IMG/VR virus record: IMGVR_UViG_3300045988_123588
Reading direction: 5' to 3' (one strand)
DNA length: 64,000 nt
DNA from: a virus
In this document: positions 9,467 through 58,265 of the stretch, piece after piece
How positions within the stretch are numbered: the first letter of the stretch is position 1
Layout of the letters: the number at the start of each line of letters is the position of its first letter
Notes under the pieces: model-generated
Told to the model about the DNA's origin: nothing
What the model saw: the letters and a program-made list of their open reading frames with translations, nothing else
The model's database searches: none
Made by a program: the position numbers and the translations under genes

Positions 9467-9605
9467 AATAATAAAGTAACAACTTGTATGAATTTTATCA
9501 AAATTATTTCACCGTCTGTGTTCAAGTATGTTCAAAGATGAGCTTGGAGAACTATATTATCTAGCAGATACTATTGATTATACACTCATGAATATTATAT
9601 AATAT

Positions 9606-11072
9606 ATGAAACAAAATAGGGTAAAGAAGAGGTTAAACTCCTGTGACAAGTTTACGTTCTCTATTGAGTTTCAATTAGAAGTACTTAGGTTCTTGGTACA
9701 AGGGAAGGAAGCTTTTCTATATGTTCCAAAGATAAAACCTGGGTACTTTACTTTAATTGAACACTCCATAGTAGTAGAGGCCTTGGTAAAATTCGTAAAG
9801 AAATATCAACGAATACCAAGTGAGGTCTTAATGGTTGAGCAGGTTAAAACTTTATTAGAAGGTAAGGATTATGTAGACTTGGTTACTAAGGATGATATCC
9901 CTAATATTCATAGTTTAATATCCGAACTTTATAACAAACCTCTAAAGGATGTGGATATTGTCTTGGAGAACATACATAAGTTTATTGCTTACATTGAATT
10001 GAAAGCTCTGAACGAGGGTATGGACTTCTCTGATTACAATTCCTACGAAACTTATCAAGCTAAACTAACCAAGATTCTACAGAGTTCAAAACCTCAAAAG
10101 AAGGATGAACCTTTACTCATGGTTAGTGGAACTGCAATGCGACAACTTATGAGAAAGGTTGACCCAGATGTAGTTCCTACTCCATTCTGGCAGTTAAATA
10201 GATTGGGTAATGGAGATGGATATCCCAAGAATTCTCTTTTCGTTTTAATTGACCGTCCCAAACGAAGAAAGACTTTTGCACTTATCAATGTTGCTCGGGG
10301 ATATCTTGCTATGAAAAAGAATGTCCTCTACATAGATACTGAAAATGGTAAAAACCAGTTAATGGACCGTATGATTCAGTCCACCCTAAATAAAACTAAG
10401 AGGGAGATGTTAACTGGTGATTATGATAAGATGGAGCAAAGGCACATGCGTAAATATAAACGACTTGGGGTTGAGTTTATTGTGGAGCGTGTACCTGCAA
10501 CCATTGCAGATTGTAACACCATTATGAACTTGGTTAGGAAATTAGAAACCGAGAAAGGTATCAAAGTCCATGTCATAATTATTGACTATGCTGCAAAGTT
10601 GGCTTCTATTGCTCGAGATAGGGATGATGTAGAACGTATCAACAATGTATATATAGATATAGATAATATGGGAGATGAGTTGGGGCTTGATGCTGTATGG
10701 ACTGCCCAGCATGTTACCAGAGAGGGAGCTAAGCATCAAGAAACTCGATATGAGGATAATGATATTGCTTCTGCTATATCTATCATAAGGAATGCAAAAT
10801 GCGTCATGGGATTAAATTCTACTCAAGACGAGGAGGAACATAATATCATGAGAATGGAGGTTGTAGTTCAACGTGATGGAGTTCCAAATGGTCGGGTAAT
10901 GTTTAATATGGACCCCGAAAGACAACGTATGAAAGAGTTCTCAAAAGAAGCCAGAGCTAAGTATGATGAATCAATAGGTAAACAGGTAGATGACTTGCTT
11001 AAGAAAAAGAGGAGAGTAAGTAATCCCAATGCAGACCCCGAAAAGAGGAGTAAGACTTCAGGAGATATATAA
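9606..11072 (+). CDS. DnaB/gp41-like replicative helicase
   Basis: C-terminal RecA-fold pattern LIDRPKRRKTFALINVARGY / NVLYIDTENG / VIIIDYAAKL / WTAQHVTREG parallels DnaB motifs. The Walker A glycine is replaced (RRKT). Confidence 0.7.
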   Translation: MKQNRVKKRLNSCDKFTFSIEFQLEVLRFLVQGKEAFLYVPKIKPGYFTLIEHSIVVEALVKFVKKYQRIPSEVLMVEQVKTLLEGKDYVDLVTKDDIPNIHSLISELYNKPLKDVDIVLENIHKFIAYIELKALNEGMDFSDYNSYETYQAKLTKILQSSKPQKKDEPLLMVSGTAMRQLMRKVDPDVVPTPFWQLNRLGNGDGYPKNSLFVLIDRPKRRKTFALINVARGYLAMKKNVLYIDTENGKNQLMDRMIQSTLNKTKREMLTGDYDKMEQRHMRKYKRLGVEFIVERVPATIADCNTIMNLVRKLETEKGIKVHVIIIDYAAKLASIARDRDDVERINNVYIDIDNMGDELGLDAVWTAQHVTREGAKHQETRYEDNDIASAISIIRNAKCVMGLNSTQDEEEHNIMRMEVVVQRDGVPNGRVMFNMDPERQRMKEFSKEARAKYDESIGKQVDDLLKKKRRVSNPNADPEKRSKTSGDI

Positions 11073-16213: not shown

Positions 16214-16789
16214 ATGGTACAATTAGAGTTCACAAAGATTAGAGATGTTAAATCTCCAAACCGAGCTAATGAGGGAGATGCAGGTTTGGATTTTTACATA
16301 CCTAAATTAACTATTGATGACATCTTAAAGGTAGGTGAGAAACATGAGAAAGATTTCACCGGTATCAATAGAAAGATGTTTGGTTGTGGTAACATAAAAT
16401 TCAAAGGCATAGATACTAATGGGTTATGTATAGCCCTTAATCCAGGAGGACGAATACTTATACCCTCTGGAATAAAGGTTCTTATCAATCCCAGGGAATC
16501 CATGCTCATGGCAGCAAACAAATCGGGAGTTGCTACTAAAGATGGATTAACATTTACAGCCGAGATAGTTGACAGTCCGTACACGGGAGAGATGCACATC
16601 GGGATTCAAAACGCTTCTACTGAACCAGTATATATACCCCTCAGAGAAGATAAGAAGATAATGCAATTCATACATGTTCCTATCATACTCTCAACACCGG
16701 TAGAGATTACCAACGAGGAGTATGAAGAGAAAGCAAAAAACTGGGGAACAAGAGGAGATAAGGGATTTGGTGCACACGATAATAAGTAA
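16214..16789 (+). CDS. dut: trimeric dUTPase
   Basis: GDAGLDFY, GGRILIPSGIKV, SGVATKDGL, IVDSPYTGEMHIGIQN and RGDKGFG correspond to dUTPase motifs 1-5. Confidence 0.85.
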   Translation: MVQLEFTKIRDVKSPNRANEGDAGLDFYIPKLTIDDILKVGEKHEKDFTGINRKMFGCGNIKFKGIDTNGLCIALNPGGRILIPSGIKVLINPRESMLMAANKSGVATKDGLTFTAEIVDSPYTGEMHIGIQNASTEPVYIPLREDKKIMQFIHVPIILSTPVEITNEEYEEKAKNWGTRGDKGFGAHDNK

Positions 16790-16793
16790 GACA

Positions 16794-17699
16794 ATGGATA
16801 GTCGCGATATAAAGGAAGAACCGAAAAATATAGAGGGTAATAGATATCTTGAGGAGATATACTTTATGCAAAAGAACCTCCTATCTGGTTATATCGGTAT
16901 AGAGGGGCTCCCACAGTATCCTATAGATATCAATACAAAAGCTTCTCAAACTTTACTCAAGGACTTCACTGCACGTGTAATAGAGGAGTTATCTGAGGGG
17001 TACGAATCTTTTCAGGCAGTGGATAGTATCATGCAGAACAGTCACTACAAGATTATATCTGGTGATGACCTGATATACATTGAACTACTTAATAACCTTC
17101 AAAATGCCAATGAGGAAAATGCAGATGCAGTACACTTCTTTGTTGAGTTGCTGATATATGCTAACATTCAGCCTGATGATATCATGGCATACATGGAGAA
17201 GTGGGTAAAGGATAACAAATGCGAACAGAGTACAGTAGATTACTTTAACTCTATACGTAATGATATCCTGTATACTGCTCAATCTATGGGAGTGAAGTGG
17301 TTGATGGATGAGAGAGATATAGAAGTAATCTTTGATAGTAACTCAACAAACCTGTTGAAGTGGTACGAAGAGAAAGACTCCGAAACTTTCCCTGAGTACA
17401 ATGAGAAACTGTTGAAAGGCGGTTATAAGTATAATCACGAAAACTATGCTCTTCAATATCCGTATATACTATGGAAGATAACTCACCATTTGAACATAGC
17501 TCGTAATTTCCTGAAGAATAAACCATGGAAGCAATCTCAGGTGATGACTCAGGAGTTAAAGTATCAGGCTGAGTTGGTGAAAGCTTTCATATACTTCTGT
17601 GGTTACCTCGGATGGATAGGTATGGATTCTAAGGAAGTGTTCTATATATACTTCAAAAAGAACCATATCAATATGTTCCGTCAAAAATCTAAGTATTAG
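16794..17699 (+). CDS. all-alpha (dimeric dUTPase/dCTPase, MazG-like) NTP pyrophosphatase
   Basis: ARVIEELSEGYE, EENADAVHFFVELLIY, KNKPWKQ and C-terminal YFKKNHINMFRQKSKY resemble the dUTPase_2 family. Start moved to MDSRD after the dut stop. Confidence 0.55.
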   Translation: MDSRDIKEEPKNIEGNRYLEEIYFMQKNLLSGYIGIEGLPQYPIDINTKASQTLLKDFTARVIEELSEGYESFQAVDSIMQNSHYKIISGDDLIYIELLNNLQNANEENADAVHFFVELLIYANIQPDDIMAYMEKWVKDNKCEQSTVDYFNSIRNDILYTAQSMGVKWLMDERDIEVIFDSNSTNLLKWYEEKDSETFPEYNEKLLKGGYKYNHENYALQYPYILWKITHHLNIARNFLKNKPWKQSQVMTQELKYQAELVKAFIYFCGYLGWIGMDSKEVFYIYFKKNHINMFRQKSKY

Positions 17700-17700
17700 T

Positions 17701-18693
17701 ATGAACATAGTTAGGGCAAAGAATCCTATTAAGGCCTGGGAATATTTAGTAGAGGGATTCCTACTGAAAAAACCCGAATGGTTTGGAGAAGGAGTTGGTT
17801 ACAATATAACCAACTCTCTTTTCACGTACGATATGTGCATAGAGATAGAAGAAGCCAAGTTTAATCCCAAGTTTGACTTTGGTAAGTTGTTCTGTTATAC
17901 CATGACTAAGTGGACTGGTTTAATAACCAACTACTTCGATTTAGATGTGCTTGATGAAGCTAAGATTATGATAAGAAAGTTGGAAGAAAATAAGGTAGTG
18001 AATAGAAACTACCATATAGGCTTTCACTTTGCAGACAATCATAATAGTGGAAAGGGATGTCTGGTGGGTGGAATATTCTCTCGTAAAATAGGTGTAGAAA
18101 AACCAGAGATAACTATCATTCTACGTTCATCAGATGTAGTAACCAGATTGCCTATGGATATGCTGTTATTCTGTAGACTCGGTGAATATGTATACGGACA
18201 TACTGATTTCAAACTGGTACTGATTCTGAAAGCAGCTTTTGCAGATGATACAGCTATACTTATGTACAACAATCATAAGGAAATAAAGAAGGTAATGAAA
18301 GGCTGTGAAGATGTAGAACGTAAGAGAAAGATACGCAAATCATTCAAGAGGTTGATGACCAGTGATGAGAAGGTATATAAGACTTATGGTCACAGTTTCA
18401 GAGCTTTCAAAGCTTTGAGGAAAGATCTCTCTTATAAACGTAAGTCAATGACTGCAGGTGAATTAGAGATTGGTAACTGGGATGGTATTCCTCTTCCATA
18501 TCCATGTTCTTCAATACTCAAACGAAATGAGATAAAGAAGACCTACTTAAAGTTCACTAGTAAGTATGGGCTTAAATTAAAGCTGGAAAGTGAAGGTAAT
18601 GAAGGCAAAAGAAAGAAGCTACTATCATTCGGAGCATCAGAAGGAGAGCCAGAAGAAGTTGGATATCAAATACCAGGACAAGAAGATGAGTAA
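17701..18693 (+). CDS. thymidylate-synthase-fold (ThyA-like) protein, paralogue A
   Basis: SGKGCLVGGIF (compare PCHxxFQF) and ILRSSDVVTRLPMDMLLFCRL (compare [21 protein letters not shown]). Asp at the Asn177-equivalent position. Confidence 0.5.
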   Translation: MNIVRAKNPIKAWEYLVEGFLLKKPEWFGEGVGYNITNSLFTYDMCIEIEEAKFNPKFDFGKLFCYTMTKWTGLITNYFDLDVLDEAKIMIRKLEENKVVNRNYHIGFHFADNHNSGKGCLVGGIFSRKIGVEKPEITIILRSSDVVTRLPMDMLLFCRLGEYVYGHTDFKLVLILKAAFADDTAILMYNNHKEIKKVMKGCEDVERKRKIRKSFKRLMTSDEKVYKTYGHSFRAFKALRKDLSYKRKSMTAGELEIGNWDGIPLPYPCSSILKRNEIKKTYLKFTSKYGLKLKLESEGNEGKRKKLLSFGASEGEPEEVGYQIPGQEDE

Positions 18694-19474
18694 GCTTAAA
18701 ATAAAGGGTAACCTGTTGCAGTTCAAAACCAGCATGAAAGCTTGGGAAGGACTTAACAGGTTATTTCTGTTCAATACCCTTGGTTTGGACATAGAAAGAA
18801 TTGGTAAAGCTCAATATATAAATGATTTAGTCATTAGTATTAATGAGCCTCTAGTAGACCCAGAATTTGATTTTGGTAGGCACTTCAACTACACCATGTC
18901 AAAATGGAAGTCATTAGTAGCTAATTACATTGATGAGAATAGTTTGATTGACTTAAGACAGGAAGTCAACACAGCTATGAACTCAAGGAAGATATTCAAT
19001 ATAGGTTATCAGTTTAATAATAAACATGCTCATGGGAAGAACTGCCTATTATCTATGACAGTGTCTAAAAAGGCTGGTATGGATAAACCCATGATAACCG
19101 TGTTCATGAGGGCATCAGAAGTTACTAAAAGATTAATATGTGATTTACTCCTCATTCAACGTATGGGAGAGTATATATTTTGCAATGGTCAGAAGTTTCA
19201 AGTATCAATACATTTCAGTCAGATATTTAATGATGATACTGTATTACTAATGTACCATGCTCATGAAGATTTACTAAAGCTAAGTGATAAACTTGGTATA
19301 TACGACGGGAATTGGTATGAGCGATTAGAATACCTACTAAAAGTAGACCCTGACAAGATAAAGTATAAGGTACATAAAAGAGCTTTGAAAGTACTAAGGC
19401 CAGAATTATTCAAGTACCCAAAAACTCTGGCAAAAGATTGTACACTTGGTAATGAAGACTGGCTACCATTCTAA
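18686..19474 (+). CDS. thymidylate-synthase-fold (ThyA-like) protein, paralogue B
   Basis: Collinear with paralogue A (KAWEGL, DPEFDFG, TMSKW, HGKNCLL, FMRASEVTKRLICDLLLIQRMGEY). ATGAGTAA overlap with A. Start moved to MSKLKIKG. Confidence 0.5.
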   Translation: MSKLKIKGNLLQFKTSMKAWEGLNRLFLFNTLGLDIERIGKAQYINDLVISINEPLVDPEFDFGRHFNYTMSKWKSLVANYIDENSLIDLRQEVNTAMNSRKIFNIGYQFNNKHAHGKNCLLSMTVSKKAGMDKPMITVFMRASEVTKRLICDLLLIQRMGEYIFCNGQKFQVSIHFSQIFNDDTVLLMYHAHEDLLKLSDKLGIYDGNWYERLEYLLKVDPDKIKYKVHKRALKVLRPELFKYPKTLAKDCTLGNEDWLPF

Positions 19475-19510
19475 GATAGGGAAGTCTATTGAATTGCAAA
19501 TACCAATGCA

Positions 19511-19690
19511 ATGAAAATAGAAGTAAAGAAATCTCCTTATACCAGTAAACTCGGAGGAGATATAGATATAACTTTCTCCACTGATGATGGATGGTTATTT
19601 AATACCGTGGCCAACATAAGTGTAAAAGATTTAAGGCAGCTTAAAAGAAAGGTAAGGAGGTATCTAAGTGAAGTACGAGAGGAAAGGTAA
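19511..19690 (+). CDS. small protein (59 aa), paralogue of the next ORF
   Basis: Hand-translated; ISVKDLRQLKRKVRRYL parallels MNIQDLKELRKSIRKYI in 19668-19868. Confidence 0.35.
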   Translation: MKIEVKKSPYTSKLGGDIDITFSTDDGWLFNTVANISVKDLRQLKRKVRRYLSEVREER

Positions 19691-19868
19691 ACCATATTTT
19701 GGAGTGGAGATATCCAAGGGTAAATATCCCGATAGGAATAGCAGGGATATAGAGTTATCTATATGTATCAATGCTCATCATTGGGTAGGTCTTCCCAATA
19801 TGAATATTCAGGACCTAAAAGAACTACGAAAATCTATAAGAAAATATATTAAAAATAACGAACAATGA
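19668..19868 (+). CDS. small protein (66 aa)
   Basis: ORF with a GTG start overlapping the previous small ORF; ATGA overlap with the next gene. Confidence 0.4.
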   Translation: MKYERKGKPYFGVEISKGKYPDRNSRDIELSICINAHHWVGLPNMNIQDLKELRKSIRKYIKNNEQ

Positions 19869-20635
19869 GAATATATTCGAACCCTTACGAGTTAATGTCA
19901 GAAACTGCTCGTAATCTTTGGGAGATGGGTAATGAGGTAAAACCACGTACCTATCAGAATAAAGTTATCGAAGGCAAAGATGACTTTATTACAAAGGAAC
20001 TTATATGTGAGCAGTACTGTTTAACTCACATGGAAGACCCAGCTGCACTTTTCGTATTTACCAAGTCCAAGGACTGGGCAGATGCAGAACTAGAAGAGAG
20101 AGTAAGCGGTAGAATGGAAAATCCTGGCAAAGCTTGGGAACTTCGTAAGAATATTTGGGAAGAGTTTTTGGTCGATGGATTTTTTGACTATACCTATGCA
20201 GAACGTATGAACGAGACAGTTTCATACAAAGGTAAAGCATTCTCTAAACTCGAGGCAGTGATAGAACTGTTAAAAACAGATAACGATACAAGAAAAGCCA
20301 TATTAAATATATATGGTGAGGACGGTTTCAATGAAGATTGCGACTCAAACTACCTTGGGGGTGAACATAGAATACCATGTTCAATGTACTACGACTTCCT
20401 CATACGGGAAAATGCCCGAGGAGAGAAGCAGTTAAATATTTGTTATCACCAAAGGTCATCAGACTTTGTAACCCACTTCGGGAATGATGTATACCTGGCA
20501 TGGAGACTCATGGAATACGTAGCTAGAGAAGTGGGCATCAAACCTGGTTATCTCTATCATACTATTGATAGTTTGCATAGTTATAAAAAGGACTGGGTAA
20601 AGCTTAAAACTTCTATCCAGACCGAATTAAGGTAA
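19865..20635 (+). CDS. ThyA-family enzyme, dCMP hydroxymethylase/methylase-like
   Basis: LLKTDNDTRKAILNIY, RIPCSMYYDF and ICYHQRSSDFVTHFGNDVYLAWRLMEYVAREVGIKPGYLYHTIDSLHSY are collinear with E. coli ThyA. Asp replaces Asn177. Confidence 0.8.
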   Translation: MRIYSNPYELMSETARNLWEMGNEVKPRTYQNKVIEGKDDFITKELICEQYCLTHMEDPAALFVFTKSKDWADAELEERVSGRMENPGKAWELRKNIWEEFLVDGFFDYTYAERMNETVSYKGKAFSKLEAVIELLKTDNDTRKAILNIYGEDGFNEDCDSNYLGGEHRIPCSMYYDFLIRENARGEKQLNICYHQRSSDFVTHFGNDVYLAWRLMEYVAREVGIKPGYLYHTIDSLHSYKKDWVKLKTSIQTELR

Positions 20636-20713: not shown

Positions 20714-20787
<74 letters not shown>

Positions 20788-20864
20788 CTTATGAATCTTT
20801 ACTTTGCGCTGTGGACAACGAGTCCTGATTCATTCCCAGGTACTGGACGGTAGTGATATAGACT

Positions 20865-20874
20865 GGTACCTAAT
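20865..20874 (+). repeat. GGTACCTAAT 10-mer, copy 4 of 4, 2 nt upstream of tRNA-Pro
   Basis: Identical 10-mer at 49911-49920, 50484-50493 and 51467-51476. Confidence 0.8.
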
Positions 20875-20876
20875 TT

Positions 20877-20951
20877 ACGGAAGTAGCACAGTCCGGTCAG
20901 TGTACTTGCTTTGGGAGCAAGGGGTCGCAGGTTCGAATCCTGTCTTCCGTA
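20877..20951 (+). tRNA. tRNA-Pro(TGG): tRNA-Pro (anticodon TGG)
   Basis: 75 nt: acceptor ACGGAAG/CTTCCGT, anticodon stem CTTGC/GCAAG, loop TTTGGGA, T-arm GCAGG-TTCGAAT-CCTGT. Confidence 0.85.
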
Positions 20952-21062
20952 CAAGGGCTATATGCTGGGTCATAACAGGAGATACGACCTCCAGCTAGCA
21001 ATGGGCAATAACCTGGTACGAGATACCAAAACCCATAATTAAAGTCGAAGGCTATAGCTTTA

Positions 21063-21100
21063 GGAGATGAGCGAAGAACAGTACCTCATCTCCCCTTTTG
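21063..21100 (+). terminator. hairpin plus T-run just upstream of tRNA-Leu (terminator or processing structure)
   Basis: GGAGATGAG...CTCATCTCC followed by CCTTTTG. Confidence 0.4.
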
Positions 21101-21105
21101 TAAAG

Positions 21106-21191
21106 GCTCGGATGGTGAAATAGGTAGACACGCCGGACTTAAAATCCTGTGACCAGCAATGGTCGTGCGGGTTCGATTCCCGCTCCGAGTA
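21106..21191 (+). tRNA. tRNA-Leu(TAA): tRNA-Leu (anticodon TAA), class II long variable arm
   Basis: 86 nt: acceptor GCTCGGA/TCCGAGT, loop CTTAAAA, variable arm GACCAGCAATGGTC, T-arm GCGGG-TTCGATT-CCCGC. Confidence 0.8.
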
Positions 21192-21206
21192 CAAAATACC
21201 CTGAAC

Positions 21207-49715: not shown

Positions 49716-49877
49716 ATGAATCAGGAAGACATCAAAGCCTTAACACCAATAGAAAAGGTACAAACCTTAATAGCCTTAATAGATACTCCGATAGGCAGGA
49801 GAAAATATCCCAAGGACCTAATACTCTTGGCTCAATCCTTAAAGGAAGACTTCCCCTACAACCCCGCCCAAACATGA
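49716..49877 (+). CDS. possible small protein (53 aa)
   Basis: Hand-translated MNQEDIKALTPIEKVQTLIALIDTPIGRRKYPKDLILLAQSLKEDFPYNPAQT, starting 2 nt after the previous stop. Confidence 0.3.
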   Translation: MNQEDIKALTPIEKVQTLIALIDTPIGRRKYPKDLILLAQSLKEDFPYNPAQT

Positions 49878-49910
49878 AAAACAAACCGAATAAATACTCT
49901 AGGAGAATAA

Positions 49911-49920
49911 GGTACCTAAT
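49911..49920 (+). repeat. GGTACCTAAT 10-mer (also at 50484-50493, 51467-51476, 20865-20874)
   Basis: Four identical copies read directly. Seven GGTACC sites lie within 49.9-51.5 kb. Confidence 0.85.
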
Positions 49921-49994
49921 CAAAATCTGTATCAACATATACAGGTTCAACCCCAAACAAGGATAAATCCAAATATCCATATACACAATCCTTA

Positions 49995-50006
49995 ATATAT
50001 AATATA
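49995..50006 (+). repeat. ATATATAATATA 12-mer (also at 50353-50364, 50702-50713)
   Basis: Three identical AT-only 12-mers in the low-coding region. Confidence 0.8.
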
Positions 50007-50056
50007 CATACCTATATATCATTCATTAAGGGAATATATAATCATCAATCATATAT

Positions 50057-50113
50057 GGCTTTTAGGATTGGCTTTTATCTTAGAGGCCTTTTATTTATGT
50101 GTTAGGTTAGGGC
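50057..50113 (+). repeat. degenerate 40-55 bp unit GCTTTTAG..AGGCCTTTTAT(A/T)T..TTA(A)GG, copy 1 (copies 2 and 3 at 51205-51245 and 51251-51301)
   Basis: ggcttttaggattggcttttatcttagaggccttttatttatgtgttaggttaggg compared with cgcttttagtggcttggcttataggccttttatattatatgataaggtacc and cgcttttaggggcctttttatattggtatatggttaaggccc. Confidence 0.6.
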
Positions 50114-50696
50114 AAAAGTTAACAGGCAGTCGATGATAAGGTTCAGATATCCAAAGAATCGAAGGGCCATAAAATCGGGGTGAGGAAAAATTTTGGTTAA
50201 GGCAAGGATAGGGGCCAACTGTGTACCTTATGAGCTCTGGAGCTATCTATGTTACTATACGTATTAGCTAAGTCGACTTAGGGCCCTAAGACCAGGGGGA
50301 AGGCCCTAAAAGGCACCTTAAAGGTACCCAAACCCCTACCTTAATCAAGTCTATATATAATATATTAAGTATATCAGGATTGAGGTTAAGGTCCCTAGCT
50401 AAGGCCTTTTCGATAAAGAGACATTAGGCCCTCTGACTCTTGATATCTACAGCTTGACTCTCTATTCAGATTGGTACACTGATGGTACCTAATGAAGGCC
50501 TTAACCCTAAGCCTTAAAGAATACAGTCTATATATATATGCGAGTCTTTTAAGTGATTTTGGAACAGGTGTCTAAAATCGATATGCCAGGAATAGAGTAT
50601 TGGAGATTTGATTTCTCAAGTTAAGGCTTAGTTAAGGCACATTTAGGGTACCTTTTAAGACCATAAACTACCATAAAGGTAGGCCTTAAAGAATTA

Positions 50697-50728
50697 TTTG
50701 CATATATAATATATTATGATTATATTTG
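50697..50728 (+). promoter_or_regulatory. Bacteroidota-type promoter (-33 TTTG, 20 nt, -7 TATATTTG)
   Basis: TTTGCA at 50697, TATATTTG at 50721-50728. Confidence 0.65.
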
Positions 50729-50770
50729 TATAACGAAAAAGAAATAATAAACCCTAATACTAATAAGGCC

Positions 50771-50932
50771 ATGAAAAGAATCAGAAAGGTAATCCTAATA
50801 TCCCTACTCTTAATAATGGGATTCACTATTGGAGCTTTGGTCACAATATATACTCAAGAGGTATATAACCATCCTAATGTAAAAGAAGCCTTTGAGGTCA
50901 AGGCCTTTGGTCAATACTTTATATACGAATAA
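50771..50932 (+). CDS. small membrane protein (53 aa)
   Basis: Start moved to MKRIRKVILISLLLIMGFTIGALVTIY (ATG after TAAGGCC). Confidence 0.45.
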   Translation: MKRIRKVILISLLLIMGFTIGALVTIYTQEVYNHPNVKEAFEVKAFGQYFIYE

Positions 50933-50951
50933 CTATTAAAATCCTAAAGCC

Positions 50952-51176
50952 ATGCTTAATTCTAAAGACTTTACCACTGCCCTGGAAATTATCTCCAAAC
51001 ATCATTCAACCGAATTGGCAATCAATACTCCTAACAATAACTTTGTAGGGTATATGGGCCAGACTGAATTCAGGTTGCATATTAAGAAATGCGTGCCCTC
51101 TGTAATCAATAAACTGATTCAGGCAGGGTATACCCTTAATATGGGACCTGAAGGTTTGGAGGTTGATAAGATTTAA
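50952..51176 (+). CDS. hypothetical protein
   Basis: 74-aa ORF. Confidence 0.45.
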   Translation: MLNSKDFTTALEIISKHHSTELAINTPNNNFVGYMGQTEFRLHIKKCVPSVINKLIQAGYTLNMGPEGLEVDKI

Positions 51177-51755
51177 CCTTCATTTGCTTTCAAGGTTGGG
51201 CCTCGCTTTTAGGGGCCTTTTTATATTGGTATATGGTTAAGGCCCTATATCGCTTTTAGTGGCTTGGCTTATAGGCCTTTTATATTATATGATAAGGTAC
51301 CTTTATGGTACCTACCCAAGGCCTATTCTTTTATTATATTATATGGGAATGAATGCAATATAGGTATATCATAATGCAAGCAGGGGCATATCATAGAAAC
51401 TTAAGACTTACGGAATATAAGTTTACTTGTTTATAAAACTAAGAACTTCTAGATTATGAAAGGCAAGGTACCTAATCCATAAGCCAACCCTGGGAACTTC
51501 AGGCTGAAAAGAAAGGCAGTGTATGGTAGGAGCTAAGGCCATAATTCATTTCGGACATATAAGACCTAACCCAGGAGCTAAGACCAATTTAAGAACCGAA
51601 CATTAAGACCTTCTATTAGAACCTTCTTTCTGGTGCCCTGATGGTGCCAAGAAGGCCAAGAAAGCAATTCCCATGCCAAGAATGTCCCGGAATAGCTCCC
51701 AGAAAGTTTTATGAAAATAAATGCTCCCGAGGCCACCAATTATAAATATTTGTTG

Positions 51756-51763
51756 TATATTTG
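51756..51763 (+). promoter_or_regulatory. -7 box TATATTTG without a well-spaced -33
   Basis: TATATTTG 52 nt upstream of the ATG at 51816. Confidence 0.4.
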
Positions 51764-51815
51764 TAATACAGAAAAGAACTAATAAAAGTTAAACCAATTA
51801 AAAATTTTTACTATT

Positions 51816-52157
51816 ATGAAAGCAAATGAAATTTTAGCAATCGGCAACGAAATTTTTTCAACCAACGAAAGAAAGAGCATCTACAAAAAAGAAATTTTTG
51901 CGGAGTGCAAAACCGACAAAGAAAAGAAAAATTTGCGTATGAAATTACGCAAAAAGCTGGACAACTTTATTGCCGAAAGCATTGCATCGGCAAAGCAACC
52001 TGCCAAGTTGGCTGAACTCCGCAAGGCATGGCAAACCTATGCCACTCAGGTATATATTAACTCTACTGCTATAGTGGATGCCAATGCCAACACGGAAAAA
52101 CGGAAATCCATCACCGACTTCCTTGCACTTATGCAACCGGCAAAGGGGGGTAAATAA
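51816..52157 (+). CDS. Lys-rich helical protein
   Basis: 113 aa, GC-richer codons, KEKKNLRMKLRKKL motif shared with other Lys-rich genes. Confidence 0.6.
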   Translation: MKANEILAIGNEIFSTNERKSIYKKEIFAECKTDKEKKNLRMKLRKKLDNFIAESIASAKQPAKLAELRKAWQTYATQVYINSTAIVDANANTEKRKSITDFLALMQPAKGGK

Positions 52158-52180
52158 AACCCCCACCGGGGTGATACCAA

Positions 52181-52212
52181 AGGGGACAAACCAAAATTTG
52201 TCCCCTATTTTT
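52181..52212 (+). terminator. strong rho-independent terminator
   Basis: GGGGACAAA...TTTGTCCCC followed by TATTTTT. Confidence 0.75.
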
Positions 52213-52233
52213 AATAAAATTTATTTTTGCGAT

Positions 52234-53099: not shown

Positions 53100-53507
53100 C
53101 TAAATATCTGCCAGGTTGATAACAGGATTCATACTCATACTCAGGTTAACGGTATCAACCTGCTGAGCATAGTCATCTGTGGGCATAAATATACCACTTC
53201 TTTTAACGTATATATTCACTATTCTTAAGTCGAAGTTAATGTCAAAAGATGGGAACCCAATTATATGCACTCCCTCTGGGAAAGTCGGACTTTGGGAAGC
53301 CGTTAAATCCATGACCAGTTTAATACCATCTATTCTACCTTCTATTAAGTCAGTGATTATCTGTTTGAGTACACTGACTTCGGTAACAAATCCAATGTAG
53401 GCCCAGTTTGGGTTAGTAGACTTGTTGTTTTCAAGTTTGATTTCTGCGAATTTCATATCATCTTCGATTATAGGTACATTACCTTGGTGAAATAAAAATA
53501 AACTCAT
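53100..53507 (-). CDS. FH(S/Q)xNVP-family protein P1
   Basis: Start moved to MSLFLFHQGNVPIIEDDMKFAEIKL to match its paralogues. Confidence 0.6.
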   Translation of the reverse strand: MSLFLFHQGNVPIIEDDMKFAEIKLENNKSTNPNWAYIGFVTEVSVLKQIITDLIEGRIDGIKLVMDLTASQSPTFPEGVHIIGFPSFDINFDLRIVNIYVKRSGIFMPTDDYAQQVDTVNLSMSMNPVINLADI

Positions 53508-53523
53508 ATCGTATGGTTTATGG

Positions 53524-53556
53524 ATTAAAAGTATATCACTATGATATACTTTTAAT
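53524..53556. promoter_or_regulatory. perfect palindrome upstream of P1
   Basis: ATTAAAAGTATATCA-cta-TGATATACTTTTAAT, 16 nt from the start codon. Confidence 0.75.
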
Positions 53557-53562
53557 GACGTA

Positions 53563-53610
53563 ATGTACACACAACAAAGCCCAGTAGAAACCTATAAACT
53601 ACTGGGCTTT
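53563..53610 (-). terminator. terminator of cassette P2
   Basis: Minus strand: AAAGCCCAGTAG...CTACTGGGCTTT followed by GTTGTGTGT. Confidence 0.65.
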
Positions 53611-53614
53611 ATTT

Positions 53615-54034
53615 TTAATCTATATTCCAATAAAAACCGTCCACTGGTGAACATGTAACTATTTCTCGGTTACCAGGTAAACTGTCAATAGTTATCTGTT
53701 GTATGATTTGGTCTCCGTTTTTACTCAGTACAGCAAACATAACCATTCCAAGTACCACCCTATTAGAATCTCTAAGGTTAATATAAATCGGTGGGTATAT
53801 GTACCCATACTTGTCCATCTCTCCGCTATTTTGAAGGGCTTTGTTATCGAATATCACTCTTACAGCATCTACCTTACCGTCGATGATATCCTGGGTTAAT
53901 TGTTGGGTCTCTTCTTCCGTGGATTGGAATTCGAACCCATTCCAATCTGTACTGGCTATTTTCAAATCTCTGACTACCATATCTTCATTTAGTGTGAAAG
54001 GCACATTGCCTGAATGAAACATTAACAAACTCAT
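53615..54034 (-). CDS. FH(S/Q)xNVP-family protein P2
   Basis: MSLLMFHSGNVPFTLNEDM... Confidence 0.6.
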   Translation of the reverse strand: MSLLMFHSGNVPFTLNEDMVVRDLKIASTDWNGFEFQSTEEETQQLTQDIIDGKVDAVRVIFDNKALQNSGEMDKYGYIYPPIYINLRDSNRVVLGMVMFAVLSKNGDQIIQQITIDSLPGNREIVTCSPVDGFYWNID

Positions 54035-54053
54035 AAGTTGTAAGGTTTATTGG

Positions 54054-54082
54054 TAAGAGTATATCTCTAAGATATACTCTTA
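54054..54082. promoter_or_regulatory. perfect palindrome upstream of P2
   Basis: TAAGAGTATATCT-cta-AGATATACTCTTA, 19 nt from the start codon. Confidence 0.75.
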
Positions 54083-54091
54083 GGTGACCTA

Positions 54092-54129
54092 CTCACACAA
54101 AAATACCCAACTAAATTAGCTGGGTATTT
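54092..54129 (-). terminator. terminator of cassette P3
   Basis: Minus strand: AAATACCCA...TGGGTATTT followed by TTGTGTGAG. Confidence 0.6.
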
Positions 54130-54140
54130 GAGTTGTATAG

Positions 54141-54581
54141 TTATTCTACCGTTTCCATGGTAATGGTTCCTGTAGAGGAAATAGTGATACATTGTATTGA
54201 CCTGTATGAACCATCTCCTTGACCTTTTACAGGTAATTGCCACGAAGTTGTACTTCTTAATACCGGTATACACGGTAAGTAGATATTTATACTACCAGGT
54301 ACTTGATAGTTACTGATATTCATAACAATACCTATGGTATCTACTTCATACAATTTACTACCATTACTAGTTGACCGTCCCCTTATGATAGGGATCACTG
54401 GCTCAGCATCATTAGCTGAAGCAGTCCTTACCAAAAGGTCGAAAGCTTGTTTACCAGTCATACCCAGTACAGAGTTAAATACTGGATACTCTCCCTGTTC
54501 CATGGGCAGGTCCACTAAAAAAATTATCGGCTTCATATTTTCCAAGATTTGTAATACATTCTGTGAGTGAAATCCTAACAT
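54141..54581 (-). CDS. FH(S/Q)xNVP-family protein P3
   Basis: MLGFHSQNVLQILENMK... Confidence 0.6.
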   Translation of the reverse strand: MLGFHSQNVLQILENMKPIIFLVDLPMEQGEYPVFNSVLGMTGKQAFDLLVRTASANDAEPVIPIIRGRSTSNGSKLYEVDTIGIVMNISNYQVPGSINIYLPCIPVLRSTTSWQLPVKGQGDGSYRSIQCITISSTGTITMETVE

Positions 54582-56546: not shown

Positions 56547-56628
56547 GAGTTTTGTTATTATTTTAATGCAATATTATATAGTTTTCGCAAGACCTTCCGG
56601 TATATATTATATAAATCTATTTTCTCGG

Positions 56629-57169: not shown

Positions 57170-58189
57170 ATGCAAAAGCCAATAGTAATTTTAGGAGTCG
57201 ATGCAGCACAAGGTGCACTACTTTTCCCCTTTCAAAATGATTCTCGGTTCAGAATAGTAGCAAATATAGAACCCCGCTCAGTTTTTCATAGTAAAGGGGA
57301 ATTACAATGGAAGCTCAATTTTGGAAATATACCGTTTGTAAGAAGCCTTGAAGAGGTCAAAAACACCCAAATTGACCTGATATTAGGTTCTCCTTCATGT
57401 GGTCATAGTTCTGTATTCTCTTATTCCAGGAAAAAATCCTTGGGCAAACCCCGGGAAGATGCCACCCTTAATTTATATCTTTCCAGTATAAAGAAGTTCA
57501 AGCCAGCAATATTTATGCTGGAGAACCTCCCAAAGCTTCTAGATTTTATACCTATCGGGGAATGGGAGCATAATTTACCCGATTATCAACTTATAGTTCA
57601 CTGTCACTCCGTTTCGGTATTCGGTAATTCTCAACAAAGTAGGAAACGTCTGGTATTGATAGGAGTACGTAAAGATTATAAAGTTAACCCAGACCTCTTC
57701 ACCCATACTTTCAAAGTAAGTAAGTTGAAAAACCTATGTGAACTGAAGAAAGAAGTACGCAGGGATATAAATTATCGAGAAGCAGATGATAAAAAGTTGG
57801 CAATGTATCATTATGCAGATAAGTCGAAAACTACTTTAACCGTGGCCCAAGTGAGGAAATTATGGAGAACCGAGTTTAAGAATGACTACAAATGGCCAAT
57901 GAGAACTCAAAAGATGAAGACTCTTCCAGGAGTATATAGGAATAGGAAAAGAAGTTACCCATTGACCGTGAGACCCTCATCAAGACAATTCAACCCCCAT
58001 GGAAGGATAATTGGCCTTGAAGAGTATAGGGTTATAATGGGCTTTCCTAAAAATTTTAAGGTATATTTTGATAAGGCTAATCCCACCTATTGGTTAAATA
58101 AGGGAAGGAATACCTTAACCAAAGGTTCGGTATATGAGGTTGGGATATGGTTAAAAAGGTGCCTAATTAAGGCCTCAATTTTAAGATAA
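57170..58189 (+). CDS. DNA (cytosine-5) methyltransferase-like protein with an atypical motif I
   Basis: Motif IV GSPSCGHSS, VI FMLENLPKL, VIII QQSRKRLVLIG and IX/X IGLEEYRVIMGFPKNFKV are collinear with M.HhaI. Motif I reads LGVDAAQGA instead of FxGxGG. Start moved to MQKPIVIL. Confidence 0.65.
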   Translation: MQKPIVILGVDAAQGALLFPFQNDSRFRIVANIEPRSVFHSKGELQWKLNFGNIPFVRSLEEVKNTQIDLILGSPSCGHSSVFSYSRKKSLGKPREDATLNLYLSSIKKFKPAIFMLENLPKLLDFIPIGEWEHNLPDYQLIVHCHSVSVFGNSQQSRKRLVLIGVRKDYKVNPDLFTHTFKVSKLKNLCELKKEVRRDINYREADDKKLAMYHYADKSKTTLTVAQVRKLWRTEFKNDYKWPMRTQKMKTLPGVYRNRKRSYPLTVRPSSRQFNPHGRIIGLEEYRVIMGFPKNFKVYFDKANPTYWLNKGRNTLTKGSVYEVGIWLKRCLIKASILR

Positions 58190-58192
58190 CTC

Positions 58193-58265
58193 CCCCTCGT
58201 ATATGCGCGTGATAATAATATACCTTAAACAGTATATTATTATCTATATACGCGTTTAAGAGGGG
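58193..58265. repeat. large imperfect palindrome upstream of the packaging module
   Basis: 13-bp perfect inverted repeat GATAATAATATAC (58211-58223) / GTATATTATTATC (58232-58244), outer CCCCTC/GAGGGG, internal TATATGCGCG/TATATACGCG. Confidence 0.7.

What the first reader, a model, noticed from the sequence alone, without database searches (positions are those of the whole stretch)
49878..51815. About 1.9 kb nearly non-coding, motif-dense region: candidate replication origin, regulatory hub or ncRNA locus
Genes are otherwise packed with overlaps. Here, two stretches of about 0.9 kb and 0.64 kb have no ORF of 60 aa or more on either strand. Only a 53-aa and a 74-aa gene lie between them.

The region is saturated with TAAGGCC/AGGCCTT/TAAGGNCC-type motifs. 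It contains:
- 7 GGTACC sites, about as many as I spotted in the other 62 kb;
- three copies of GGTACCTAAT;
- three AT-only ATATATAATATA blocks;
- three copies of a degenerate 40-55 bp unit (GCTTTTAG..AGGCCTTTTATaTT..TTAAGG).

Iteron-like repeats together with AT-rich unwinding blocks fit an origin. The region also marks the switch from the + strand array to the - strand block.

TAAGGCC or AAAGCC directly precedes several real start codons (48473, 49501, 50771, 50952, 25617). Decayed gene starts are therefore an alternative explanation.
Basis: seen in the sequence. Interest (0 to 1): 0.65.

Follow-up and report, generated by a model that had tools for sequence, protein, structure and literature searches.

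The report
Conserved non-coding control region, gut phage
This 1.9 kb gap in a common human-gut Bacteroidota phage is real non-coding DNA built from terminators, host-type promoters and repeated palindromic sites that look like protein-binding sites; it is kept more faithfully than the small genes around it, so it most likely controls gene expression, and nothing specific marks it as a replication origin.

Summary
GGTACC occurs 7 times in 1.9 kb against 8 in the other 62 kb, GGCC 20 against 89, and no reading frame is conserved.

The parts resolve as follows:
- The "40-55 bp units" are three + strand intrinsic terminators.
- One AT block is the spacer of a canonical Bacteroidota promoter (TTTGCA-N19-TATATTTG).
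- The GGTACC/GGCC motifs form an oriented composite module, GGYRCM-N4-5-GGYRCC-N3-5-AAGRCC. It has five paired-hexamer sites here (0.03 expected by chance) and none elsewhere in the window.

About 50 related phage genomes keep two non-coding blocks (about 590 and 450 nt) better than the flanking genes, including a near-invariant 134-nt core. Extra gene cassettes in relatives carry the same terminator, hexamer pair, AAGGCC, promoter junction.

The second hexamer flips between GGTGCC and its complement GGCACC, and the spacers vary. That points to double-stranded DNA recognition, not RNA. Covariation, Rfam, DnaA boxes, tandem iterons and GC skew give nothing for an ncRNA or an origin.

Best reading (confidence about 0.45): a promoter-upstream regulatory array in a cassette-shuffling early region. 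It is close to T4 PeSLs and, by appearance, to the T5 untranslated repeat regions. The core and the variable (TA)n tracts remain unexplained.

The parts
49878..50056 (+). Variable non-coding tail after the 53-aa gene. It holds AAGGTACCTAAT (49909-49920) and a TATATAATATA box (49996-50006).
   Evidence: Only about 5 of 92 related loci match 49750-49950.
50057..50098 (+). Intrinsic terminator T1: a 12-pair stem with G-U pairs, followed by TTTTATTTAT.
   Evidence: RNA fold is -15.4 kcal/mol (z -3.6) on the + strand and -4.1 on the - strand. Conserved in relatives.
50100..50690 (.). Block A: conserved non-coding DNA holding three tandem promoter-upstream-type modules (a, b, c).
   Evidence: Found as one colinear unit at 70-95% identity in nearly all relatives. 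Frames are not conserved. Indels are mostly not multiples of 3.
50164..50176 (+). GGGCCATAAAATC, invariant in the 44 aligned sequences and largely retained (GGGCCATAA) in the most distant relative, L052.
50312..50328 (.). Paired hexamers of module a: GGCACC-TTAAA-GGTACC.
50352..50368 (+). AT tract a (TATATATAATATATTAA). It is the least stable 20-mer of the 64 kb window, and its length varies in relatives.
50473..50500 (+). Composite module b: GGTACA-CTGAT-GGTACC-TAATG-AAGGCC.
50527..50660 (.). Near-invariant 134-nt core. It begins with (TA)n tract b (50529-50539), which ranges from 11 to 24 nt among relatives.
   Evidence: Conservation. Tract lengths. One copy per contig. No folding signal (z 0.03 on + and -1.9 on -).
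50636..50668 (+). Composite module c: GGCACA-TTTAG-GGTACC-TTTT-AAGACC, with AAGACCATAAAC overlapping its end (50657-50668). It lies 30-60 nt upstream of the -33 element.
   Evidence: Kept in L052 and MT121964.1.
50694..50728 (+). Host-type early promoter P50721: TTATTTGCA-N19-TATATTTG. The 'AT block' at 50703 is its spacer.
   Evidence: same architecture as nine other promoters at 34-48 kb. The -7 consensus TAnnTTTG is given in PMC4747536.
50771..50932 (+). 53-aa predicted membrane protein gene, present in only a minority of relatives.
50952..51176 (+). 74-aa conserved gene of unknown function, 76-96% identical in relatives. It shows a weak MotA C-terminal-domain-like fold signal.
51198..51228 (+). 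Intrinsic terminator T2 (GGGCCTC...GGGGCCT followed by TTTTTAT).
   Evidence: Fold -12.0 kcal/mol on + and -6.2 on -.
51261..51290 (+). Terminator-like hairpin T3 (GGCTTGGCTTATAGGCC followed by TTTTATATTA). It is weak by energy but highly conserved.
51290..51740 (.). Block B: non-coding DNA upstream of the 113-aa gene. The whole intergenic region (51177-51815) stays at 638-721 nt in all relatives, and 51350-51400 is a highly conserved stretch.
   Evidence: No structure signal.
51296..51323 (+). Composite module d: GGTACC-TTTAT-GGTACC-TACCC-AAGGCC, followed by an AT tract at 51329-51345.
51632..51657 (+). Composite module e: GGTGCC-CTGAT-GGTGCC-AAG-AAGGCC. Relatives, including the most distant (L052), carry a module of the same composition in block B; it does not line up column for column across lineages. 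Its spacers vary and the second hexamer flips orientation.
51756..51763 (+). The -7 box (TATATTTG) of the promoter of the 113-aa gene. In this lineage the -33 position reads GAGGCC instead of TTTG.
51816..52157 (+). 113-aa conserved helical protein gene, the last + strand gene before the convergent - strand block.
52159..52216 (.). Back-to-back terminators that close the + strand array and the - strand block.
   Evidence: -23.9 kcal/mol, z -4.1.
58158..58174 (+). Outlying short module GGTGCC-TAATT-AAGGCC. It lies upstream of the gene that precedes the large terminase, next to a roughly 70-bp imperfect palindrome (58192-58265).

Best explanation
The region is the downstream end of the phage's early, cassette-type gene array. 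It is a run of five copies of one intergenic junction module.

The module reads, in order:
- a + strand terminator hairpin built from GGCC-type stems;
- a pair of palindromic GGYRCC hexamers one helical turn apart;
- AAGRCC (often AAGRCCATAAAC);
- AGGCCTTAA;
- an AT-rich promoter.

Two copies (c and e) end in host sigma-A-type promoters that drive the 53/74-aa genes and the 113-aa gene. Three copies (a, b, d) have no TTTG elements and carry AT or (TA)n tracts instead.

Inferred mechanism: a dimeric or tetrameric double-stranded-DNA-binding protein, from the phage or the host, occupies the paired hexamers and the AAGGCC sites upstream of these promoters and sets their activity. That could be early shut-off or a switch to a later transcription class. 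The promoter-less copies would then add a high-density cluster of the same sites.

Shown here: the terminators, the promoters, the module and its statistics, its conservation, and its recurrence at other cassette junctions.

Inferred only: that a protein binds it, and what that does to transcription.

Not explained: the near-invariant 134-nt core and the length-variable (TA)n tracts.
For: - Promoters. Ten promoters of the form TTTGCA-N19-TATATTTG lie at 34-52 kb, two of them in the region. This is the Bacteroides -7 consensus (PMC4747536).
- Terminators. Three + strand terminators are present, and their folds favour the + strand.
- Statistics. Paired hexamers GGYRCM-N5-GGYRCC give 5 sites (8 matches counting both strands) against 0.03 expected, all inside the region. 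The full composite module occurs 4 times, all on the + strand, and nowhere else in 64 kb.
- Relatives. The module occurs 71 times on the gene strand and once on the other strand in 564 kb. The hexamers and AAGGCC are conserved. The spacers vary (CTGAT, CACT, CAAA, GCAT, TCTT). The second hexamer switches between GGTGCC and GGCACC, which are reverse complements. This is the pattern of a symmetric double-stranded DNA site.
- Recurrence. The same order (terminator, hexamer pair, GGCCATAAAC, AAGGCC, -33/-7) sits 65 nt upstream of a different promoter at an extra gene cassette in L013. Motif units directly upstream of P50721 are duplicated in L042.
- Outlier. A short copy lies upstream of the terminase-proximal gene at 58158.
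- Promoter variant. In this lineage the -33 element of the 113-aa gene's promoter is replaced by GAGGCC.
- Depth of conservation. The most distant relative keeps only the motifs and the promoter, not the intervening sequence.
- Weak lead. The conserved 74-aa gene lying between the blocks gives T4 MotA DNA-binding domain as its top eight PDB fold matches.
Against: - No binding protein is identified. The MotA-like signal is not significant (E 0.16-0.6 on a model with pLDDT 60), and a profile comparison with T4 MotA gives 0.6% probability.
- Blocks of 450-590 nt, and a 134-nt stretch invariant across 44 distinct sequences, are far more than operator sites normally need.
- Modules a, b and d have no recognisable promoter.
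- The 71:1 strand bias comes mostly from two orthologous positions, so it is not 71 independent events.
- Other early promoters at 34-48 kb work without this module.
Confidence: 0.45

Rival explanations
1. Replication origin. The (TA)n tracts act as DNA unwinding elements. The flanking GGYRCC/AAGGCC sites bind an initiator or a helicase loader. Alternatively, early transcription through the region primes replication, as in T7 and T4.
For: - The region is conserved, non-coding, and the core is single-copy.
- 50353 is the least stable 20-mer in 64 kb, and three more of the twelve least stable 20-mers lie here.
- The (TA)n tract length varies freely from 11 to 24 nt. An unwinding element tolerates that; a promoter spacer does not.
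- The phage encodes a DnaB-type helicase, a primase, PolA and SSB, but no recognised initiator.
Against: - No tandem iteron array: modules are 160-660 bp apart and TRF finds nothing.
- No DnaA boxes.
- No GC-skew inflection at the region; the cumulative maximum is near 48 kb and tracks gene orientation.
- At 40-100 bp scale the AT tracts are no less stable than ordinary early promoters.
- The motif module recurs at other cassette junctions.
- The AT tracts lie downstream of terminator T1 and upstream of the next promoter, so little host transcription should cross them.
Confidence: 0.15
2. Non-coding RNA locus. One or more RNAs are made from non-host-type promoters (the TATATAATATA and (TA)n boxes). 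The near-invariant core would be the functional RNA.
For: - A 134-nt stretch with almost every base fixed is more typical of a functional RNA than of operator DNA.
- TATATAATATA is over-represented (5 against 0.32 expected), and every copy is on the strand of the local genes.
- 49996 plus T1 could bound an RNA of about 85-90 nt.
- Several small hairpins carry G-U pairs that work only on the + strand.
Against: - No Rfam match, even at E up to 10.
- In the consensus fold only 9 of 80 pairs show a double change, and the covariation term is only -2 kcal/mol.
- Alignment z-scores reach -3 to -5 only at 50290-50530, and equally on both strands. There is no signal in the core or in block B.
- The core as a single sequence folds no better than shuffles.
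- The observed substitutions break the predicted core hairpin (G to U opposite U).
- The hexamer-pair variants favour opposite strands.
- No terminator lies between block A and the next gene.
Confidence: 0.12
3. Recombination linkers. The blocks are enlarged versions of the terminator/promoter junctions that mediate cassette exchange among co-infecting relatives, as PeSLs do in T4-type phages. Their high identity would come from frequent gene conversion, not from a function of their own.
For: - Gene content differs on both sides of block A and between blocks A and B. There are at least six insert sizes between the 74-aa gene and block B.
- Early promoters are dispersed repeats of 46-100 nt at 75-84% identity.
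- Assemblies of relatives break at these repeats.
- PeSL literature: PMC2839356 (listing only), PMC4122927 (abstract read).
Against: - Conservation inside the blocks is patchy in a motif-specific way. At greater divergence the motifs survive while the sequence between them does not. That indicates selection on the sites, not wholesale homogenisation.
- A 40-nt segment inside block A exists in three unrelated forms while its flanks stay invariant.
Confidence: 0.15
4. A cis-acting DNA site for genome entry or packaging, comparable to the T5 injection-stop/untranslated repeat regions or to the short-repeat zones next to T7 terminal repeats.
For: - It shares the T5 hallmark: an untranslated region full of repeats and palindromes, conserved among relatives whose neighbouring early ORFs are not (10.1101/866236).
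- Many related contigs, including both GenBank relatives, start or end within 46-54 kb.
Against: - The contig ends fall at different positions: repeated promoters, (TA)n tracts, and twice at sequencing adapters. That points to assembly breaks at repeats, not to a fixed terminus.
- At least one full-length contig (_129938) runs across the region.
- There are no DnaA boxes, unlike T5.
- The terminase genes are 7-8 kb away, with their own palindrome at 58.2 kb.
Confidence: 0.06

Closest known systems
PeSLs (promoter-early stem-loops) of T4-type phage hyperplastic regions (PMC2839356, PMC4122927)
   Same: Both are composite terminator-plus-early-host-promoter junctions. Both repeat with high similarity between small, variable ORFs. 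Both are associated with insertion, deletion and replacement of gene cassettes between close relatives.
   Different: - Here the junction carries an extra, oriented set of palindromic sites (a GGYRCC pair plus AAGGCC) between terminator and promoter.
- Three copies have no gene and no canonical promoter.
- Two long blocks (590 and 450 nt), including a 134-nt invariant core, have no PeSL counterpart.
- The promoters are of the Bacteroidota type, not sigma-70.
Untranslated repeat regions / injection stop signal of T5-like phages (10.1101/866236)
   Same: Both are kilobase-scale untranslated regions inside the earliest-expressed gene set. [quoted passage not shown] Both are conserved in order among relatives whose adjacent ORFs are poorly conserved.
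   Different: - There are no DnaA boxes here.
- There is no evidence for a long terminal repeat or a fixed genome end.
- There is no sequence similarity.
- The function of the T5 regions is itself only a hypothesis.
T4 middle promoters (MotA box plus sigma appropriation)
   Same: Both are early-region promoters in which an upstream box could replace the host -35/-33 element; P51756 has GAGGCC at the -33 position. In addition, a small phage protein next to the sites gives the MotA C-terminal domain as its best fold match.
   Different: - The fold match is not significant and there is no sequence similarity.
- The sites here are palindromic pairs 30-200 nt upstream, not a single box at -30.
- No AsiA-like partner was found.
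Iteron-type phage and plasmid origins (lambda ori, P1 oriR, P4 ori/crr)
   Same: Both combine repeated protein-site-like motifs with easily melted AT-rich tracts in non-coding DNA.
   Different: - There is no tandem array of 17-22-bp iterons.
- There are no DnaA boxes.
- There is no adjacent initiator gene.
- The motifs are also used at other promoters.

Membership tests
PeSL-type composite terminator/promoter cassette | A stem-loop terminator directly joined to an early host-sigma promoter | tested here: met
   Seen at the terminator plus P46196, in L013 4820-4990, and as T2/T3 ... P51756 and T1 ... P50721 with longer spacers.
PeSL-type composite terminator/promoter cassette | Many similar copies dispersed between small ORFs of a variable region | tested here: met
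   Ten promoters at 34-52 kb share 75-84% identity over 46-100 nt.
PeSL-type composite terminator/promoter cassette | Indel and replacement boundaries between relatives coincide with the copies | tested here: inconclusive
   Cassette content varies on both sides of the blocks, and extra cassettes bring their own junction. Breakpoints were not mapped to the base.
PeSL-type composite terminator/promoter cassette | A short element with no further conserved sequence (the size limit is recalled from memory, not read from the papers) | tested here: not met
   Blocks A (590 nt) and B (450 nt) are conserved throughout their length or in long stretches.
Iteron-type replication origin | A tandem array of three or more direct repeats of about 17-22 bp in helical phase | tested here: not met
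   TRF finds only two trivial 9-bp rows. The modules are 161, 163, 660 and 336 bp apart.
Iteron-type replication origin | An adjacent AT-rich unwinding element | tested here: met
   50353 is the least stable 20-mer of the window. At 40-100 bp scale the tracts are no different from other promoters.
Iteron-type replication origin | DnaA boxes, or an initiator gene at or next to the site | tested here: not met
   No TTWTNCACA within the region. The neighbouring proteins have no family match.
Iteron-type replication origin | A strand-composition switch at the site | tested here: not met
   GC skew turns negative at about 48 kb and follows gene orientation. There is no inflection at 50-51.8 kb.
T5-type untranslated repeat region / injection stop signal | A conserved untranslated repeat- and palindrome-rich region among poorly conserved early ORFs | tested here: met
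   The region is the window maximum for 6-, 8- and 10-bp non-AT palindromes.
T5-type untranslated repeat region / injection stop signal | Location inside a long direct terminal repeat near a fixed genome end | tested here: inconclusive
   Contig ends cluster at 46-54 kb but at different positions, on repeats, (TA)n tracts and adapters. No read data are available.
T5-type untranslated repeat region / injection stop signal | Ordered pairs of DnaA boxes | tested here: not met
Structured non-coding RNA | Match to a curated RNA family | tested here: not met
   Rfam finds only the three tRNAs at 20.7-21.2 kb at the gathering threshold. In the region nothing scores better than E = 2.
Structured non-coding RNA | Base pairs supported by compensatory changes on one strand | tested here: not met
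   44 sequences, 80 predicted pairs, 9 with any double change, covariation term -2.0 kcal/mol. Shuffle z-scores are similar on both strands and absent in the core.
Structured non-coding RNA | Its own promoter and terminator bounding a discrete transcript | not testable with these tools
   Only candidate boxes are available (TATATAATATA). There are no transcript data.
MotA-type activator / middle promoter system | An activator with the MotA C-terminal 'double-wing' DNA-binding fold | tested here: inconclusive
   The top 8 PDB fold hits are MotA C-terminal domain, but E is 0.16-0.6 on a model with pLDDT 60. MotA also appears among the BFVD top hits. hhalign probability is 0.6%. No Pfam hit.
MotA-type activator / middle promoter system | An activator box replacing the -35/-33 element at a fixed distance from an intact -10/-7 element | tested here: inconclusive
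   Seen only at P51756 in this lineage, where GAGGCC sits where TTTG should be. No other TAnnTTTG box has this arrangement.

The most novel reading that the evidence does not exclude
Blocks A and B, and above all the near-invariant 134-nt core at 50527-50660 with its hypervariable (TA)n tract, may not be promoter accessories at all. They could be a previously undescribed cis-acting element of a very common gut phage lineage. Candidates are a new kind of phage origin or recombination-initiation site, a DNA-entry or packaging control site in the manner of T5, or a new RNA whose constraint is on primary sequence, not on helices.
Probability: 0.25. Interest if true: 0.65.

Novelty: new variant of a known kind. 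Interest (0 to 1): 0.4.

Why it matters
The phage lineage is abundant in human gut data. The two small flanking proteins have 324 and 191 hits in the 90%-identity clustered protein collection, some standing for hundreds of member sequences, and genomes are about 77-80 kb. None of its relatives in the phage collection comes from a cultured isolate.

Almost nothing is known about how Bacteroidota phages schedule transcription or start replication. This region gives a concrete, testable handle:
- a defined composite DNA motif (GGYRCC-N4-5-GGYRCC ... AAGGCC) tied to early promoters;
- a set of canonical host-type early promoters and terminators that could be reused as parts in Bacteroides;
- a non-coding core more conserved than any neighbouring gene.

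If the motif binds a phage regulator, it would be the first operator-like system described for this group. If the core turns out to be an origin or an RNA, it would be a new element in one of the commonest gut phages.

Tried and rejected
- Hidden protein coding, including altered genetic codes. The one stop-free stretch shared by 98% of sequences (50105-50225, - strand) is read in different frames in different relatives. Indel lengths are mostly not multiples of 3.
- Known RNA families. Rfam at gathering and at E up to 10 gave nothing. No tRNA or tmRNA lies here.
- RNA structure. Consensus folding, pair counts and shuffled-alignment z-scores on both strands gave no strand-specific support.
- DGR template repeat. 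The core has no second, diverged copy in the window.
- DnaA boxes: none in the region.
- Sigma-54 promoter reading of the hexamer pairs (by eye, no tool run). Only one site on the - strand fits GG-N10-GC, and relatives with 4-nt spacers do not fit.
- Genome terminus inferred from contig ends. The ends fall at different positions on dispersed promoter repeats, (TA)n tracts and Nextera adapters.
- Restriction-site avoidance or decoy. GGTACC and GGCC are at expected frequency in the rest of the window. The palindrome excess is due almost entirely to GGTACC and AGGCCT.
- Mobile element or invertible segment. The 35-nt inverted repeat 50008/51333 is AT-rich, 74% complementary, and its left arm is not conserved.
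- Identity of the neighbouring proteins. Pfam, PHROGs, NCBIfam and PDB sequence searches were empty. The fold search for the 113-aa protein was empty.
- Specificity of the phage C5 methyltransferase: no PDB relative.
- Host sequence origin. The core pattern occurs only on three MAG contigs, once on each; their content was not examined.
Full report
**What the window is**

The window is most of a tailed phage genome of about 77-80 kb.
- It encodes a baseplate wedge protein, a PolA-type polymerase, a DnaB-like helicase, a primase, SSB, UvsX-, SbcCD- and RusA-like proteins, a large terminase, a portal and a protease.
- Its only relatives in the phage collection are two uncultured human-faecal records, MT121964.1 (75.5 kb) and MT835790.1.
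- IMG/VR holds more than 50 related contigs. The small proteins next to the region have hundreds of homologues in the clustered protein collection.
- Ten promoters of the form (A/T)TTTGCA-N19-TATATTTG lie on the + strand between 34 and 52 kb. TAnnTTTG at -7 is the Bacteroides consensus (PMC4747536); the matching -33 TTTG is from my own knowledge of Bacteroides promoters. The host is therefore a member of the Bacteroidota, and this stretch is the early, host-polymerase-transcribed array of small genes.

**The observation**

All the counted features are real and far beyond chance.
- GGTACC: 7 in the region, 8 in the rest, about 0.2 expected from composition.
- GGCC: 20 against 89. AGGCCT: 7 against 13.
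- TATATAATATA: 5 in the window against 0.32 expected.
- The region is the window maximum for non-AT palindromes of 6, 8 and 10 bp.
- The rest of the genome holds GGTACC and GGCC at expected frequency, so this is enrichment, not relaxed avoidance.
- The switch to the - strand genes is at 52.2-52.4 kb, one gene beyond the region.

**Anatomy**

- The three 'degenerate 40-55 bp units' are + strand intrinsic terminators. T1 (50057-50098) folds at -15.4 kcal/mol on + and -4.1 on -. T2 (51198-51228) is moderate. T3 (51261-51290) is weaker but highly conserved.
- The AT block at 50703 is the spacer between the -33 and -7 elements of promoter P50721, which drives the 53-aa and 74-aa genes. A second -7 box at 51756 precedes the 113-aa gene.
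- Two long non-coding blocks remain: A (50100-50690) and B (51290-51740).
- Within them the GGTACC- and GGCC-type motifs are organised. Pairs of GGYRCC-like hexamers lie one helical turn apart (spacer of 5 nt here, 4-5 in relatives), followed 3-5 nt later by AAGRCC. This occurs at 50473, 50636, 51296 and 51632, with a hexamer pair alone at 50312.
- The paired-hexamer pattern gives 5 sites (8 matches counting both strands) against 0.03 expected. The full module occurs only here, and only on the + strand.
- The pair at 50312 and the modules at 50473, 50636 and 51296 are each followed within 25-55 nt by an AT block. For 50636 (copy c) the block is the spacer of P50721; the -7 box of P51756 lies about 100 nt beyond 51632 (copy e). 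For copies a, b and d the block is an AT or (TA)n tract with no TTTG elements.

**Comparative evidence that the blocks are functional and non-coding**

- Across 92 loci, block A and the first 260 nt of block B are found in nearly all relatives at 70-95% identity. The genes at 49716-49877 and 50771-50932 are found in few.
- The whole 51177-51815 spacer keeps its length, 638-721 nt.
- A 134-nt core (50527-50660) is almost invariant in 44 distinct sequences whose neighbouring segments differ by up to 35%.
- No reading frame is conserved. The one common stop-free stretch is read in different frames in different genomes. Only 8 of 68 indels in block A and 11 of 50 in block B are multiples of three.
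- The (TA)n tract at the start of the core ranges from 11 nt (this window, the shortest) to 24 nt, mostly in steps of two. The spacer of promoter c shows substitutions but no indels in the alignment.

**RNA or DNA?**

- Rfam gives nothing.
- A consensus fold of 44 sequences has 80 pairs. Almost all are invariant, and the covariation term is -2 kcal/mol.
- Shuffled-alignment z-scores reach -3 to -5 only at 50290-50530, and equally on both strands. That is what inverted repeats in DNA would give. The core and block B show no signal. The core folds no better than shuffles.
- The block B module is the most informative case. In relatives it appears as GGTACC-CACT-GGCACC-AGCT-AAGGCC, GGTACC-CAAA-GGTGCC-AGCT-AAGGCC, GGTGCC-CTGAT-GGTGCC-AAG-AAGGCC, and other forms.
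- Across these forms the hexamers and AAGGCC are kept and the spacers are free. The second hexamer alternates between GGTGCC and its reverse complement GGCACC. An RNA hairpin would be disrupted on one strand or the other. A symmetric site GGYRCC read on double-stranded DNA is not affected.
- I therefore read the motifs as protein-binding sites on duplex DNA.

**What they are attached to**

- In relatives that carry extra genes between the 74-aa gene and block B, each extra cassette brings its own junction with the same order of parts. In L013 4779-5024 the order is: GGCC-stem terminator; GGTACC-CTCT-GGTGCC; GGCCATAAAC; AAGGCC; then a canonical -33/-7 promoter 65 nt downstream of the pair.
- P50721 in the window has the same layout: GGCACA-TTTAG-GGTACC, AAGACCATAAAC, AGGCCTTAA, -33.
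- In L042 the units just upstream of this promoter are tandemly duplicated.
- The most distant relative (L052) has lost most of the block A sequence. It retains GGGCCATAA, GAGCT-N5-AGCTATCT, AGGTACC, GGCAC-N5-GGTACCTT and the promoter.
- A short version, GGTGCC-TAATT-AAGGCC, lies upstream of the gene that precedes the terminase.
- In this lineage the -33 TTTG of the 113-aa gene's promoter is replaced by GAGGCC. Other lineages have TTTGCA or TTTGTA there.
- Together these observations tie the module to promoters and cassette junctions, not to a single unique site.

**Best explanation and its limits**

- The region is a run of five junction modules at the end of a cassette-shuffling early array. 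It carries an operator-like array for an unidentified DNA-binding protein that modulates the local promoters. Confidence is about 0.45.
- The terminators, the promoters, the module, its statistics and its conservation are shown. Protein binding and its regulatory effect are inferred.
- The candidate binder is weak. The conserved 74-aa protein gives a low-confidence model (pLDDT 60). Its top eight PDB matches are all the T4 MotA DNA-binding domain, but at E 0.16-0.6, and a profile comparison gives no support.
- The 113-aa protein is helical with no match.
- This model does not explain the invariant core or the conserved promoter-less copies.

**Rivals**

- Origin of replication (0.15).
  - For: AT tracts that include the least stable 20-mer of the window; tolerance of (TA)n length change; no recognisable initiator elsewhere.
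  - Against: no iteron array; no DnaA boxes; no skew inflection; reuse of the module at other junctions.
- A new RNA (0.12) is hard to exclude for the invariant core, but it has no positive structural evidence.
- Recombination linkers in the PeSL sense (0.15) fit the cassette variation (PMC4122927 abstract; PMC2839356 listed). They do not fit the motif-specific pattern of conservation at greater divergence.
- A T5-like entry or terminus element (0.06) shares the overall look described for T5 (10.1101/866236). However, contig ends near here fall on dispersed promoter repeats, (TA)n tracts and adapters, not on one position.

**Verdict**

The finding is real and moderately interesting. The origin reading is not excluded, but nothing specific supports it. 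Relative to known systems it is a new variant of the composite terminator/promoter junctions of phage hyperplastic regions, enlarged by an oriented palindromic site array and two unusually conserved non-coding blocks.

Noticed in passing
window 1-64000: GATC is almost absent: 12 sites against about 210 expected from composition, and none in 49878-51815. This suggests strong selection against a GATC-specific host restriction system.
   Followed up: no
window 50529-50539 and 50352-50368; relatives L003-L148: The (TA)n tract at the start of the invariant core behaves as a dinucleotide microsatellite, ranging from 11 to 24 nt among relatives, mostly in steps of 2. This window carries the shortest allele. 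Tract a also varies in length.
   Followed up: partly
window 58192-58265: A roughly 70-bp imperfect palindrome lies between the methyltransferase gene and the gene that precedes the large terminase. It has perfect 13-bp arms, GATAATAATATAC and GTATATTATTATC, nested in CCCCCTC...GAGGGG. It could be a packaging site, a late promoter or a terminator.
   Followed up: no
window 9596-9606 (+) and 56603-56613 (-): The 11-mer TATATAATATA, over-represented in the window, also lies directly upstream of the DnaB-like helicase gene and in an intergenic gap of the - strand block. Each copy is on the strand of the local genes. It may be a second, non-host-type promoter element.
   Followed up: partly
window 48473, 49501, 50771, 50952, 25617: Several genes start with TAA(A/G)GCC immediately before the ATG. 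Relatives show AAAGGCTATG and AAAGGCCATG. This may be a lineage-specific start context in a host group that does not rely on Shine-Dalgarno pairing.
   Followed up: partly
window 53100-54581 (- strand): Three consecutive - strand genes (156, 139 and 146 aa) look like paralogues, sharing an N-terminal F-H-(S/Q)-(G/Q)-N-V motif. None has a family match.
   Followed up: no
L028 1-41 and L047 1-41 (IMG/VR contigs 3300045988_080767 and _088760): Two public contigs begin with Nextera transposase adapter sequence (GTCTCGTGGGCTCGGAGATGTGTATAAGAGACAG) fused to phage sequence. In L047 the junction is exactly at the (TA)n tract.
   Followed up: no
window 16214-20635: A dUTPase, an NTP pyrophosphohydrolase-like protein and a thymidylate-synthase-family protein are clustered. 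This could indicate a modified pyrimidine in the phage DNA.
   Followed up: no
window 50428-50468; alignment A1 columns 383-425: A segment of about 40 nt inside block A exists in three mutually unalignable forms among relatives, while both flanks stay invariant.
   Followed up: partly
window 20714-21192: A cluster of three tRNA genes: Met-CAT, Pro-TGG and Leu-TAA. A GGTACCTAAT copy lies between the first two.
   Followed up: no
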